From assembly GCA_031459385.1 (NCBI GenBank), contig JAVKIP010000007.1:64001-128000 (forward strand): DNA of 64,000 bases, in the 5' to 3' direction. This stretch comes from Candidatus Fervidifonticultor secundus (GTDB lineage: Bacteria > Sysuimicrobiota > Sysuimicrobiia > Sysuimicrobiales > Humicultoraceae). Made by a program: the position numbers. Numbering within the stretch: position 1 is the stretch's first letter; each line of letters begins with the position of its first letter. This document shows, piece after piece, positions 18,001 through 30,000 of the stretch.

Positions 18001-21000
18001 GCTGGATCTCGAAGGGCAGCTGGGTGTTCGAATAGACGACGAGCCGGTCGGGCGTCTCCCAGACTGCGAGCGCGGCCCGGGGCTCCAGGTACGCCTGGTG
18101 CACCGGTGCGGTGGTGAACGTGTCCTCGTAGACAGCGTCGGCCTCGCCGAGCGCACGGTCCCAGTCGCCCTTCACGATCCATGCCTCGCCGCAGACGTTG
18201 CCGGACCGGATCACCTGTGGGTGCGCGGCGTAGGACTCCCAGGCCTCGTGGACGAGCGCGGCATCCTCGGCCGCCGCGCGGTCGGGATCGGTGATCGCCG
18301 GCAACACCTCGTAGTCCACGGCCAGACGGTCGACCGCGTCGTCGGCCGCTTCGCGGCTCGTGGCCGCGACCGCCGCGACGGGCTGGCCGACGTAGCGGGC
18401 CACGTCGACGGCGAAGATCGTCTCGTCCTTCACCAGGCCACCGAAGCGGCGCGCCGGCGCGTCGCGGGCGGTGACCACCGCCACCACCCCCGGCACCTGC
18501 AGGGCGACGGACGGGTCGATGCCGCGGATGCGGGCGTGCGCGTGCGGGCTGCGGGCGATGCGCCCCCACAGCATGCCGGGCAGCGCGATGTCCATGGCGT
18601 ACGCGTACTGGCCCAGCACCTTGGCGCGGCCGTCGAGGCGCAAGACGGACCGGCCGACGGCGCTCACGGGCGCACCGTCGCTGCGCGCGCGGCCAGCCGC
18701 CGCGCGGCGACCTGCACGGCCTGGACGATCTTCGCGTAACCGGTGCAGCGGCACAGGTTCCCGGACAATGCGCGCCGGATCTGGTCCGCGGTCGGTTCGG
18801 GGGCCTCGGCCAGCAGCGCGACGGCCGAGAGGACCACCCCCGGTGTGCAGTACCCGCACTGTACGCCGCCGCACTCGACGAGCGCCTCCTGCACCGGGTG
18901 CAGCGCGCCCTCGCTGGCGACCCCCTCGATGGTCACCACCGATCGGCCGTCGGCCGAGGCTGCGAGCACCAGGCAGGCGGTCGCCGGCCGGCCGTCCAGG
19001 AGCACGGTGCAGGCGCCGCAGGCGCCTTCCCGGCACGACTCCTTGGTGCCGGTGAGTCCCAGGTCATCGCGCAGCAGGTCGAGCAGCGTGCGGTGAACGG
19101 GAGTCTGCACGACGTGCGGCGTGCCGTTGACGCGCAGGGCCACCGGCAGGGTCCGGGGCAGACCGGGCTGCGAGCTCATGGCGTCTGTTCCACGGCCGCC
19201 GGCGCGGGCAGACGGGCCTGGAGTGGCCAGATCTCGGCCAGGCGCGCCGCGGTCGCCACCACCCGCGGCGCGAGTTCGTGCTTGCGCGCCACCGGCAGCC
19301 GGAACGTCGGCCCCGAGAGCGACACGGTCCCCACGACGCGGTTGGCCGCGCGCGGCAGCCTGACGGCTGCGGCCACAGCGCCGGCGCCCTCGAACAGCTC
19401 CTCCTCGACGACGGCGTAGCCGAGCCGGCGGACGCGTCGCAGTTCCCGGCGCAGGGCCACCGGCGAGGTCACGGTCCGCCGCGTGAACGCCCGCAAGCGC
19501 TCCCGGCGCGCGATGGCCAGCGCCTCCGCCTCCGGCAGGCTGGCCAGGAAGACCTTGCCGGCCGCCGTCGCGTGGAGGGGCGCGAACTGCCCGAGCATGG
19601 ACACCATCCGGATGCGCTGGTCGCGGCCTTCGGCCTTGGCCACGAACAGCAGGCGCTGGCCGTCGACGACCCCCAGCTGCACCAGCTCGCCGGTCTCGTC
19701 GGCCAGATCCTGGAGGACCGGGAGGCAGACGCCCGGGAAGCCCAGGCGATCGGCGTAGCGCAGCCCCAGCGCCAGGATGCTCAGGCCCAGGTGGATTCGC
19801 CGGGTGGCAGGCGAGGGAACCACGTAGCCCCGGGCCGCCAGGTGCCGGAGAGTCCGCGACACGACGCCCTTGTGCACGCGGAGCTGGCGAGCCAGCTCGC
19901 TCACGGTCAGGCCGTCCTGCGCCGACGAGAGCGCCTCGACGATGGCCAACCCCACGCTCATGGCTGGTGGGCCCTCACGGTCCCGACGTCCCGGCAGCTC
20001 CGGCGTCGGGTTGTGACAACTTTGTTGCTTCACCGAAGGTTTCGCCGTCTGCAGCGCCATTCCTGGTGGACGCGGCTGTTCCGTGTGTCCGGGCCCTCCC
20101 CCGTACGCAGCCTCCGCCCGCGCCGATGGGAGCTCAGGGGGAGCAGCGATGCCACGACGCACCGGCGCCATCGGCGAGGACGCGGCAGCGGCCTGGTTTG
20201 AGGCCCAGGGGTACCAGGTGCTGGCCCGCAACGTGCGGTGGCGCAGCGGAGAGATCGATCTCGTCGTGCGCCGTGGCGCGGTCGTGGTCGTCGTCGAGGT
20301 CAAGAGCCGGACCGGCGACGGGTTCGGACACCCGGCCGACGCGGTCACGCCGCGCAAGCGCCGCCGTCTCACGCGGCTGGCTGCGCGCTATCTGGCCCTG
20401 GCCGGCCTCGACGACGCCGTGGTGCGCTTTGACGCCGTGGCCGTGCACCTGACGCCTGAGGGTCAGGTCCGGTCCGTCGAGCATCTGCCCGACGCGTTCA
20501 GCGCATCGAGGTGAAGGCGGTGTACCCTGCGGCCCCTGGGCGCAGGGCGATCTGGGCCAGCACCTGCGCCGCGGCCTCCTGGCCCTGGCGGATGCAGTCG
20601 GGAACCCCGACGCCCCGGTAGCCAGCGCCCGCCAGCGCCAGGTGCGGCAGGCCGGCCAGGACCGTCTCGGCGGCGGCCAGACGGTCGAGGTGGCCGGGCG
20701 TGTACTGCGGCATGGCATGTGGCCACCGGGCGACGTGCGCGATCCGTGGGGTGGCGTCGAGACCCATCACCAGGCGCAGGTCGCGGCGTGCCGTCTCGAC
20801 CAGCGTGGCGTCGTCGGCCGCCACGATGGCGTCGGCCCCGGCGCGGCCGAAGTAGCAGCGCACCAGCGCGATGCCCGGCGGCGCCCGGCCAGGCCACTTC
20901 GACGAGACCCAACTGCACGCGGTGATCTGCACGGGTTCGCCCCGCGCCACCACGAACCCGTGGCCGTCGAGGGGATGAGCCACCTCGGCGCGGCGATAGG

Positions 21001-27000: not shown

Positions 27001-30000
27001 GTGCAGGTCGTCCTCGCGGAAGCGCCGGTGCCCGCCCGGCGTGCGGAACGTGCGCACGCGGCCCATGTCCGCCCAGTGCCGCAGGGTCGCCTCGTCGACG
27101 CCGAGGAGCGCGGCGGCCTGGCCGAGCGGTAGCCAGCGGCCTTCGCGGGGGCGATCGGTGCGCGCGGACATCGGCCCTTAGATTCTATAGAAGTCTGTGT
27201 AATCCTTCGTGAATCGTGCCAAGACACACCGGCCCGCCGCACAGCCGCGCCCGGGCGGCCGATGACACCGGTGGGGAGATCGTCCGAGGCGATGCTGGCA
27301 GTCGTCGCGAGCGCCACGCTCGCTGGCCTGGACGCCGTGCCCGTGTCCGTGGAGGTCGATGTCGGGCCGGGGCTGCCGACGTTCGCCATCGTGGGCCTGC
27401 CGGACGCCGCCGTGCAGGAAGCGCGGGAGCGCGTGCGCACGGCGATCAGGAACTCCGGGTACGAGATGCCGCCGCGGCGGATCGTGGTGAACCTGGCGCC
27501 CGCGGACCGCCGGAAAGAGGGGCCAGGGCTCGACCTGCCGATTGCGCTGGGGGTGTTGATCGCCACCGGCCAGCTGCGCGCCGACGCCGTGCGGGGCTAC
27601 CTGGCACTGGGTGAGCTGGCGCTGGACGGCGCGCTCCGTCCGGTCCCCGGCGTGCTCTCGGCGGCCGAGACCGCGCGGCGCATCGGCGCCCGTGGCCTGC
27701 TGGTGCCCGCAGCCAGCGCCGGCGAAGCCGCCATCGTCGAGGAGGTGCGCGTCTATGCGCTCGCCAGCCTGCGTGCAGCCGTCGACCACCTCAGCGGCGT
27801 GCGCGCCGCGTCGCCGGCGGTCGTGCCGGTGCCGGCGCAGACGCCCCACCCGCCACCGCTGGACCTGGCCGACGTGCGCGGGCAGCCGGCCGCGTGCCGG
27901 GCGCTGGAGGTCGCGGCGGCGGGCGCGCTCAACCTGCTGCTGGTCGGGCCGCCCGGGGTCGGCAAGACGATGCTGGCCCGGCGGCTGCCCTCCATCCTGC
28001 CACCGCTGCGCCGCGACGAGGCCGTCGACGTAACCCGGGTCTACAGCGTGGCCGGCCGCCTGCCGCCGGGGACGGGCCTGCTGTGGGAGCGCCCGTTCCG
28101 TGCGCCGCATCACAGCGCCAGCGCGTCGTCCCTGGCCGGCGGCGGCACCATCCCCCGGCCGGGCGAGATCTCCCTGGCCCACCACGGCGTGCTCTTCCTC
28201 GACGAGTTGCCCGAGTTCAGGCACGACGCGCTGGAGGTGCTGCGCCAGCCGCTGGAGGACGGCGTGGTCACGGTAGCGCGCGTCCACGGCGTGGTGCGTT
28301 TCCCCGCGCGGTTTGTGCTGGTCGCCGCGATGAACCCCTGCCCCTGCGGGTTCCGCGGCGATCCGCAGCGCCCGTGCGCGTGCACGCCGGCGCAGGTCCA
28401 GCGGTACCTCGCCCGGCTGTCCGGTCCGCTGCTCGACCGCATCGACCTGCACGTCGAGGTGCCCCGGCCGCCCACCGAGGCGGTCCTGACCGGGCCGCCG
28501 GGCGAGCGCTCCGCGGCGGTGCGCGCGCGGGTGACCGCGGCGCGCGAGCGCGCCAGGGCGCGCGCAGCGCGTGCGGTCGGAGGCGACGGCGCCGGTGCGG
28601 AGAGCGGACCGATCGCTCCCGAGGCGCTGGCGTTCGTACACCGGTGTGCCGACCGTCTGCTGCTGGGCGCGCGGGCGACGCGCCGCCTGCTGCGCGTCGC
28701 CCGCGCGATCGCCGACCTCGAGGGCGCGGAGGCTGTGCACGTGGAGCACGCGGCCGAGGCCGCGCGCTACCGGCTGCTCGACCGGCACGCGCCGGCAGCC
28801 GTGTGAGCGGAGGGACCGACGATGGCCTCCGCGTGGCCGCCGCCGTACCACCGGCCGCTGGAGGGCGAAGCGCTCGAGGCCGAGGTCGAGGCGTACGTCG
28901 GGCTGAGCCTGCTCCCCGGGATAGGGCCGCGCACGATCAAACAGTGGGTCGAGCAGGTAGGGCGGGCCCGTGCGGTGTGGGACCGCCTGCCGCAGATGGT
29001 CCGAACCCGGGCCGGCCGCGATGACCTCATCATCGCCTGGCGCGCGGCACACCCCGGCCGGGTGGTGGCCCGGGCACGGCGGTGCAGACAGCAGGTCGTG
29101 GTGCCAGGACACCCGGCGTATCCGGAGCGCCTGTGGCAACTCGCCGACCCGCCGCCCGTGCTGTTCGTGCGCGGCGCCCTCGATGCGCGGCCGGCCGTGG
29201 CCGTGGTGGGGGCGCGGCGGGCGTCGCCGTACGGGCTCCAGGCGGCCGCACGCCTGGCCCGCGACCTGGCGGCAGCCGGCGTCGCCGTGGTGAGCGGGCT
29301 GGCACGCGGCATCGACGGCGCCGCGCACCGCGGGGCGCTCGACGGCGGAGGGCGCACGGTGGCGGTCCTGGGGTCGGCCGTGGACGTAATCTACCCGCCC
29401 GAGCACGTGCCGCTGGCCGAGGCGATCGCAGCGCGCGGCGCGCTCGTCTCCGAGTTCCCGCCGGGCACCCCGCCCCAGCCCGGCCACTTCCCCCGGCGCA
29501 ACCGGCTGATCAGCGGGCTCTGTCTGGCGGTCGTGATCGTCGAGGGCGCGGAGGACAGCGGGGCGCTGGTGACCGTGGACTACGCGCTGGCCCAAGGACG
29601 CGACGTCTTCGCCGTGCCGGGGAGCATCTTCAGTCCGGTCAGCCGGGCGCCGCTGGCGCTGCTCCGCGACGGTGCGAAGATGGCGACCTCTGCAGACGAC
29701 ATCCTGCAGGAGTTGCAGGTGCCGGCAGTGCCACCTGTCGATGCTGCGCCTGGCGGTGCGGCCGGATCCTCCGATGGCGGTCGCCCGACCGACCGGCTGC
29801 TGGCGGCCCTGGCGGGAGGACCGGCCACACTGGACGCCCTGGTGGCGTCGACGGGCCTCACGGCGGCGGAGGTCGCGGCGGCGATCACGCTGCTGGAGGT
29901 GCAGGGCAGGGTCGTGCTGCATCCTGGCCAGCTGGTGGCCGCGCGGGCGATGCCGGATCGCCGGGAGCCTTGACAGCCCGTGCTACCGTATAGGATGAAC

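What a model noticed while it worked through the whole genome (the two positions that open the first line are those of the whole stretch)
20498..27171. Heme operon that starts at ALA: hemA and hemL deleted and no ALA synthase
The intact hemC-D-B-chdC-hemE-hemY operon lacks hemA and hemL, and no ALA synthase is present. This free-living hot-spring genus, which has many heme enzymes, must scavenge 5-aminolevulinate or make it by an unknown route. Other genera that lost hemA gained ALA synthase instead.
Evidence so far: GlutR is absent in G000-G002 and G021 and present in 59 of 94 genomes over cut-off. HemL is below cut-off in G000 and G001. ALA synthase is over cut-off only in G060 and G077. The operons of G007 and G026 hold hemL, with hemA at the adjacent position, inside the same gene order.
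(Added by a program. Inside this text positions count along the whole contig: contig position 64,001 is position 1 of the stretch shown here. "Call 12" and the like, gene names such as g00115 and contig names such as C1 are that model's own, and its searches are not shown. The text may have been shortened before it was handed on; [...] marks where a part breaks off. The agent that wrote the report below was given it as the finding of a first reader that could run no searches.)

Follow-up and report, generated by a model that had tools for sequence, protein, structure and literature searches.

The report
Heme pathway lacking its first steps
A hot-spring bacterium keeps the genes for turning the precursor ALA into heme but has no known way to make ALA, a loss that recurs in its relatives, so it probably takes ALA from neighbours or makes it in an undescribed way.

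Summary
Confirmed, and broader than reported. The minus-strand operon regulator-hemC-hemD-hemB-chdC-hemE-hemY is intact. hemB ends 5 nt before chdC, and G000 has no hemA, hemL or ALA synthase. Ferrochelatase, a heme-copper oxidase and cytochrome c maturation genes lie elsewhere. Of 94 phylum genomes, 20 hold hemB but no native ALA route; 10 of these are at least 90% complete. Another 10 hemA-less genomes carry a true ALA synthase. The losses fall on about seven branches, and four genomes keep deletion scars. hemB stays under purifying selection. No replacement gene tracks the loss. Best reading: ALA import through general peptide transporters (0.55). This resembles the ALA salvagers known among B12-making anaerobes, but here it feeds heme in a free-living respirer. 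Main rival: the ThAOS-type glycine acyltransferase, kept in this genus without its partner tdh or biotin genes, makes ALA on the side (0.2). Two first-reader points are wrong: ALA synthase is in 10 genomes, not 2, and several other lineages lost hemA without gaining it.

The parts
27181..27206 (-). Operator: three direct repeats in 10-bp phase just upstream of the regulator start
   Evidence: Sequence; found upstream of the regulator in 24 of 24 loci aligned; scores 42.4 with a matrix built without G000/G001, next site in G000 25.2, shuffled maxima 19.8-25.4; marks the operon start even where the regulator gene sits at the operon's end
26476..27171 (-). Regulator: BldC-type HTH fused to a globin-like sensor domain
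   Evidence: HTH_17/MerR; model pLDDT 86.7; N-domain matches BldC; C-domain matches globin-fold sensors, 3pmc Z 13.8 rmsd 2.4 over 131, DosC globin Z 10.8
25556..26479 (-). hemC, hydroxymethylbilane synthase
   Evidence: TIGR00212 298.8 bits, over cut-off
24747..25559 (-). hemD, uroporphyrinogen III synthase (start approximate)
   Evidence: PRK05928 models E 3.8e-31, below their cut-offs; position between hemC and hemB conserved
23774..24772 (-). hemB, porphobilinogen synthase: first enzyme present, consumes ALA
   Evidence: PRK09283 475.5 bits, over cut-off; Zn-cysteine and both lysine motifs intact; dN/dS 0.116 against G001
23769..23773 (-). 5-nt hemB-chdC spacer; relatives G004, G007, G008, G017 carry hemA-hemL at this slot
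23064..23768 (-). chdC (hemQ), coproheme decarboxylase
   Evidence: HemQ model E 2.2e-38, below cut-off
22005..23039 (-). hemE (uroD), uroporphyrinogen decarboxylase
   Evidence: TIGR01464 397.7 bits, over cut-off
20498..21922 (-). hemY (cgoX), coproporphyrinogen oxidase
   Evidence: TIGR00562 265.1 bits, over cut-off

Best explanation
The operon is a working coproporphyrin-dependent heme pathway that starts at ALA: HemB, HemC, HemD, HemE, HemY, then HemH (contig C4) and ChdC. The genus has lost hemA and hemL and has no ALA synthase (shown). It most likely imports ALA released by neighbouring cells through non-dedicated peptide or amino-acid ABC importers, as Dpp does in enterobacteria (inferred). 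Because such importers are common in the phylum, hemA-hemL becomes dispensable and is lost again and again; some lineages hold a separately placed ALA synthase instead (pattern shown, cause inferred). The BldC-globin regulator probably represses the operon at its repeated operator in response to a tetrapyrrole or gas (inferred).
For: No known ALA route in G000, nor in G001, whose main contig holds 3.15 of about 3.2 Mb. hemB dN/dS is 0.08-0.15 in 6 of 6 pairs without an ALA route. HemH is present in all 20 such genomes (split in G035, G074, G078) and a heme-copper oxidase in 19 of 20. Scars prove true deletion: HemA N-terminal remnants in G055 (E 1.1e-7), G054 (4.6e-6), G056 (0.017) and a HemL C-terminal remnant in G035 (7e-20). 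No single candidate enzyme or transporter tested tracks the loss. G000 has 54 family-5 binding proteins, 46 DppB-like and 48 DppC-like hits. Precedent: ALA dependence shown in three hemA/hemL-less species (PMC6461909, passages). C. scindens needs ALA although it has an oxoamine-synthase homologue (197 bits, supplement row). Dpp transport of ALA: titles in a reference list only.
Against: No ALA importer was identified. The best DppA hit is 30% identical, and none of the three transporters tested tracks the loss. Transporter-family size, read from first-look candidate counts, is not consistently higher in losers than in C5 sisters (G035 22 vs G036 24; C5-positive g23 has 73-141). Shelton et al. 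could not detect ALA above 100 nM in the samples they tried, and 78% of their salvagers with habitat data are host-associated. ALA is unstable when hot and neutral to alkaline (recalled). A respiring cell needs more tetrapyrrole than a B12 user (inference).
Confidence: 0.55

Rival explanations
1. The ThAOS-type glycine C-acetyltransferase (G000 C12:49187-50389) also condenses glycine with succinyl-CoA, giving enough ALA. This phylum-wide side activity is what lets hemA-hemL be lost repeatedly.
For: Its closest solved relative is Thermus ThAOS (7POA, 486 bits), reported as unusually broad: glycine with acetyl- to octanoyl-CoA (PMC10230504 passages). It is found in 17 of the 20 genomes without an ALA route; the misses are G035, G058 and G074, 64-81% complete. 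Family f5 lacks it in 9 of 12 genomes and keeps hemA in 12 of 12. In this genus tdh is gone from the ancestral tdh-kbl operon and bioD/bioB are absent, yet dN/dS is 0.11. It has Thr at the ALAS T365 site, which binds the succinyl carboxylate, and Arg where ALAS has Arg21 (role of Arg21 recalled). Succinyl-CoA synthetase is present.
Against: It keeps the KBL-type Val79 motif where ALAS has Thr (27, 31). No column separates 7 ALA-route-less from 9 C5-positive orthologues. True KBLs also carry a basic residue (Lys) at the Arg21 site. Orphan retention without adjacent tdh also occurs in C5-positive genomes (G023, G025, G036, G064, G084, G087). At least 9 of the 10 genomes with a true ALAS keep it as well. 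C. scindens has a homologue and still needs ALA. Succinyl-CoA is not among the ThAOS substrates in the passages read. The f5 contrast is a single lineage, and f5 also has few peptide-binding proteins.
Confidence: 0.2
2. An undescribed route makes ALA, for example transamination of 4,5-dioxovalerate (DOVA) by a HemL-like class III aminotransferase, with DOVA from an unknown enzyme.
For: G000 has a full-length HemL-like aminotransferase (378.6 bits). DOVA transamination to ALA is documented chemistry (PMC13564367 section 3.6). I could not compare whole proteomes, so an unknown gene is not excluded.
Against: The HemL-like paralogues are polyphyletic: the G000 copy is not the orthologue of the G001/G002 copy. 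It sits among catabolic genes (creatininase family, MlrC). No HemL-like hit at E <= 1e-80 in G015, G035 or G055. The SucA that could give a DOVA precursor is absent from all 20 genomes. The review says a role for DOVA in plants lacks compelling support and that an ALAS-less Rhodobacter mutant with the transaminase still needed ALA.
Confidence: 0.12
3. The cells live mainly on imported heme or porphyrins, and the early genes are kept as a rarely used backup.
For: Heme auxotrophy is known in free-living aquatic lineages (bioRxiv 2021.01.11.426183 passages). hemH of G035 is in two pieces.
Against: The heme auxotrophs in that paper lack the middle pathway, which is intact here. hemB, C, D and E show dN/dS 0.08-0.33 in losers, like C5-positive pairs. 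I did not search for dedicated heme importers.
Confidence: 0.08
4. hemA-hemL exist in G000 at another locus that was not assembled or binned.
For: G023 and G025 have the same hemB-chdC junction and carry hemA-hemL elsewhere. G000 has 59 contigs. G043 and G050 are such gaps.
Against: Absent in 3 of 3 genomes of the genus, including G001 with 4 contigs, and in 3 of 3 of genus g9. Scars in four other genomes show that real deletions occur.
Confidence: 0.05

Closest known systems
ALA salvagers among cobamide producers (Shelton et al. 2019, PMC6461909; C. scindens, C. sporogenes, T. primitia)
   Same: hemA, hemL and ALAS all missing; hemB, hemC and hemD kept.
   Different: There the product is a cobamide, and the 30 of 34 table rows I saw are, by their names, anaerobes, mostly Firmicutes. 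Here the product is heme for respiration: no uroporphyrinogen methyltransferase in G000, oxidase and cytochrome c maturation present. The host is free-living, loss recurs within one phylum with scars, and uptake is not shown.
Coproporphyrin-dependent heme pathway (HemE/UroD, HemY/CgoX, HemH/CpfC, ChdC)
   Same: All four enzymes are encoded.
   Different: No ALA-forming step; hemH is moved out of the operon; the AhbD-like radical SAM gene that relatives keep in the operon is on contig C14 (72).
ThAOS (Thermus thermophilus BioF/Kbl, PDB 7POA)
   Same: Best structural-database match of the G000 C12 enzyme; shared Val79 motif.
   Different: Arg instead of Ile at the ALAS Arg21 site; no tdh, bioD or bioB partner in this genus; ALAS activity not reported in what I read.
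BldC (PDB 6AMA/6AMK) and globin-fold sensors (pXO2-61, DosC, RsbR-N)
   Same: HTH fold with a phased direct-repeat operator; globin-like C-terminal fold.
   Different: Fused in one protein heading a heme operon; no invariant histidine in the sensor domain; ligand unknown.

Membership tests
ALA salvager (Shelton 2019 definition) | Missing both hemA and hemL | tested here: met
ALA salvager (Shelton 2019 definition) | No ALA synthase | tested here: met
   TIGR01821 303.1 < 338.55; true ALAS in relatives score 634-650
ALA salvager (Shelton 2019 definition) | hemB, hemC, hemD present | tested here: met
ALA salvager (Shelton 2019 definition) | Complete cobamide pathway downstream | tested here: not met
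   No uroporphyrinogen III methyltransferase in G000; the end product is heme
ALA salvager (Shelton 2019 definition) | Tetrapyrrole made only when ALA is supplied | not testable with these tools
   needs a culture
Coproporphyrin-dependent heme pathway | UroD, CgoX, CpfC and ChdC encoded | tested here: met
   the ChdC hit is below the model's cut-off
HemL (GSA aminomutase), for G000 C11:14708-15970 | TIGR00713 cut-off and placement in the HemL clade | tested here: not met
   378.6 < 527.3; outside the HemL clade with altered motifs
ALA synthase, for G000 C12:49187-50389 | TIGR01821 cut-off and the Thr-Arg-Asn-Ile-Ser-Gly glycine-pocket motif | tested here: not met
   KBL-type Val motif instead
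ALA synthase, for G000 C12:49187-50389 | Forms ALA from glycine and succinyl-CoA | not testable with these tools
   needs an assay
DppA-type ALA importer | Close DppA orthologue | tested here: inconclusive
   54 family members, best 30% identical to E. coli DppA

The most novel reading that the evidence does not exclude
These bacteria make ALA themselves by a route outside the two textbook ones. Most plausibly their Kbl/ThAOS-type oxoamine synthase works as a physiological ALA synthase, which would explain why hemA-hemL was lost on about seven branches while heme respiration was kept.
Probability: 0.3. Interest if true: 0.85.

Novelty: new variant of a known kind. Interest (0 to 1): 0.6.

Why it matters
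ALA is thought to come only from the C5 pathway or from ALA synthase. Here about a fifth of one phylum's genomes keep heme synthesis with neither. If they salvage ALA, that extends ALA cross-feeding from gut anaerobes making B12 to free-living respirers, and it predicts that adding ALA will help to culture a lineage that has resisted isolation. If the Kbl-type enzyme makes the ALA, it is a third physiological route and a living model of how ALA synthase could arise from a promiscuous oxoamine synthase. One enzyme assay separates the two.

Tried and rejected
Hidden or decayed hemA/hemL in G000: none; none in the operon loci of the f1 losers either. Regulon approach: no second operator site in G000 above shuffled background, and none over score 17 in the 10 ALAS loci. 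HemL-like paralogues as replacement: polyphyletic and patchy. Diagnostic residues in the Kbl of losers: none. Second oxoamine synthase (C45:21075-22364): lacks the Arg-site residue, is absent from G003, G015 and the f4 losers, and is present in many C5-positive genomes. TAXI transporter beside the operon in 8 relatives: found in 37 of 94, absent from G015, G020-G022, G035, G054-G056. Two DppA-like proteins: 48 of 94 and 5 of 94, neither tracks the loss. SucA carboligase route: SucA in 8 of 94, in none of the 20. SDR-type threonine dehydrogenase in G000: not found with a narrow local profile. Lower heme demand as cause: genus g12 lacks the oxidase (0 of 8) yet keeps hemA. Whether G079/G078 lost ALAS from the G077 site: the neighbour gene was not found in 5 of 5 genomes, so no answer. 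The G056 hemA lies on a 3-kb contig with a second hemC and is 33% identical to G007's; I treated it as foreign. RNA run X4: short pieces only, no evidence on expression. The search for related loci with the regulator gave one locus. The single-sequence fold was poor. A full IQ-TREE run timed out. Ten paper searches listed no report of this loss in the phylum and none of ALAS activity in a Kbl; the library lacks most subscription journals. Astner 2005 and Dailey 2017 were not held.
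Full report
Observation. The window is G000:C57:64001-128000. On the minus strand lie a regulator (27171-26476), hemC, hemD, hemB, chdC, hemE and hemY (ending at 20498), between yifB and yraN. 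hemB stops 5 nt before the chdC start, and single contigs bridge that junction in 3 of 3 DNA runs, all from one study labelled hot springs metagenome and possibly the source of this DNA. G000 has no glutamyl-tRNA reductase: GlutR_N best E 0.425, and a profile of 34 relatives' HemA finds only NAD-fold cross-hits. Its best HemL-like and ALAS-like proteins fall below cut-off. The rest of the pathway and its users are present: ferrochelatase on C4, a heme-copper oxidase, two cytochrome c maturation loci, and by my reading of the translations two cytochrome bc-like clusters and a nitrous oxide reductase-like gene. There is no uroporphyrinogen methyltransferase, so ALA here serves heme. The phylum is probably Sysuimicrobiota (CSP1-3). 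This is inferred from 'Armatimonadota' labels on close homologues and the earlier assignment of CSP1-3 to that phylum (PMC11604079, passages); it was not tested.

Distribution. Of 94 genomes, hemA is over cut-off in 57 and cut by contig ends in 2 more; hemL in 54; hemB in 88; ALAS in 10. All 10 ALAS genomes lack hemA. From the 35 hemA-less genomes I set aside those 10, four without hemB (G010, G037, G048, G093) and two with a hemL end at a contig edge (G043, G050). That leaves 19; G056, whose only hemA is on a 3-kb contig with a second hemC, makes 20. Ten of the 20 are at least 90% complete. The six f4 members (G058, G063, G074, G075, G078, G079) have ALAS-bearing relatives and, except G079, are 64-89% complete, so some may simply have an unassembled ALAS.

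Real and repeated loss. I mapped 40 operon loci plus the window and 35 more regions. G004, G007, G008 and G017 have hemB-hemA-hemL-chdC. G000-G003, G005, G006 and G020-G022 have hemB-chdC abutting, but so do G023 and G025, which carry hemA-hemL elsewhere, so the junction alone proves nothing. Scars do: between operator and hemC, G054, G055 and G056 keep a HemA N-terminal remnant (E 4.6e-6, 1.1e-7, 0.017), and G035 keeps a HemL C-terminal remnant (E 7e-20) while its sister G036 has both genes. G015 lacks hemA and hemL at two separate slots that G014 fills. A tree of HemC+D+B+E from 41 rows that I chose, enriched for losers, needs at least 9 changes of C5 state. Lineages without any ALA route outside f4 fall on seven branches; counting only strongly supported nodes, and f4 as one, there are at least five separate losses. 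This is an operon tree, not a species tree. HemA and HemL of the core f1 genera group with the f3 pair rather than with G013/G039, unlike the operon tree, so the pair may have been re-acquired as a cassette, and the slot from which the G000 genus lost it is uncertain.

The pathway is still used. hemB dN/dS is 0.08-0.15 in 6 pairs without an ALA route and 0.15-0.29 in 5 C5 pairs; the latter are more diverged, so the difference should not be read as stronger selection. Catalytic motifs are intact in G000. HemH is found in all 20 genomes, in pieces in G035, G074 and G078, and the oxidase in 19 of 20.

Where does ALA come from? Salvage has precedent. Shelton et al. (PMC6461909; passages, supplement rows, 30 of 34 ALA rows seen, three supplement files not searched) showed ALA dependence in three species lacking hemA and hemL. 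They could not detect ALA above 100 nM in their samples. G000 has 54 family-5 binding proteins, but none is close to DppA (30%), and three transporters tested do not track the loss. That Dpp carries ALA I saw only as titles in a reference list (PMC4206461).

The enzyme rival. The G000 C12 protein is a ThAOS orthologue. ThAOS accepts glycine with acetyl- to octanoyl-CoA (PMC10230504, passages); succinyl-CoA is not listed there or in PMC11906848 (passages), whose supplements I did not open, and the 2007 paper was not seen. The ancestral operon is tdh-kbl-moeA. In this genus tdh is gone and bioD and bioB are absent in 5 of 5 genomes tested, yet kbl has dN/dS 0.11. It has Thr at the T365 site that binds the succinyl carboxylate in Rhodobacter ALAS (PMC13674496, passages) and Arg at the Arg21 site (role recalled). 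Against this: the KBL-type Val is kept, no residue separates losers from C5 genomes, real KBLs have Lys at the Arg site, kbl without tdh also occurs in C5-positive genomes (some absences rest on capped candidate lists), and C. scindens needs ALA despite a homologue. The HemL-like paralogues are polyphyletic, and SucA is absent from all 20, so a DOVA route (PMC13564367, section 3.6) has no visible source.

Regulator. The first gene has a BldC-like HTH and a globin-fold domain without an invariant histidine in that domain. A 10-bp-phased repeat lies upstream in 24 of 24 loci and has no second significant site in G000.

Verdict. The feature is real, recurrent and unexplained at the step that matters. 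Shown: loss of all known ALA routes with retention of the heme pathway under selection. Inferred: ALA import (0.55), Kbl side activity (0.2), unknown route (0.12), heme uptake with backup pathway (0.08), assembly gap (0.05). It works like an ALA salvager but is not a member of the described class, which is defined on cobamide producers. Ten searches listed no report of it. Interest 0.6; 0.85 if an endogenous route is shown.

Noticed in passing
window 26476-27206: BldC-type HTH plus globin-fold sensor with a 10-bp-phased operator heads or accompanies the heme operon across much of the phylum; the operator stays at the operon start even where the gene moved to the end.
   Followed up: partly
L008 (G000:C12:49187-50389): Kbl/ThAOS-type enzyme kept under selection after loss of tdh and without biotin genes; also seen in several C5-positive genomes, so it has an unknown job.
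   Followed up: partly
L040-L049: True ALA synthases occur only in hemA-less genomes (10 of 10) and sit in several different gene neighbourhoods, suggesting repeated acquisition or movement; in G072 next to an AhbD-like radical SAM gene.
   Followed up: partly
L118 (G023:C379): hemA-hemL lie in what reads as a sulfite/nitrite reductase and siroheme-synthesis cluster rather than in the heme operon.
   Followed up: no
L071, L073-L076, L081, L097, L108: A highly conserved TAXI-type TRAP transporter (84-98% identity to the G006 copy) lies divergent from the heme operon in 8 genomes; in G000 its orthologue is split across the ends of C56 and C21.
   Followed up: partly
G000:C14:18562-34388: Cluster reading as a DMSO-reductase-family respiratory enzyme, an AhbD-like radical SAM gene and nitrous oxide reductase genes.
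   Followed up: no
G000:C2:51336-62300 and C29:1-8662: Two similar cytochrome bc plus Ccm clusters; true duplication or the 5.5% contamination.
   Followed up: no
genus g12 (G026-G033): No heme-copper oxidase in 8 of 8 genomes, and no chdC in the two operons mapped, yet hemA-hemL is kept.
   Followed up: no
L082 (G035:C68): hemH in two pieces besides the hemL remnant: pathway decay or assembly error.
   Followed up: no
L009 (G000:C45:21075-22364): Second oxoamine synthase of unknown product, limited to families f1 and f3.
   Followed up: partly
window 12706-19964: Catabolic cluster: family-5 binding protein, cupin fusion, luciferase-like monooxygenase, xanthine-dehydrogenase-type molybdoenzyme and an IclR regulator.
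   Followed up: no
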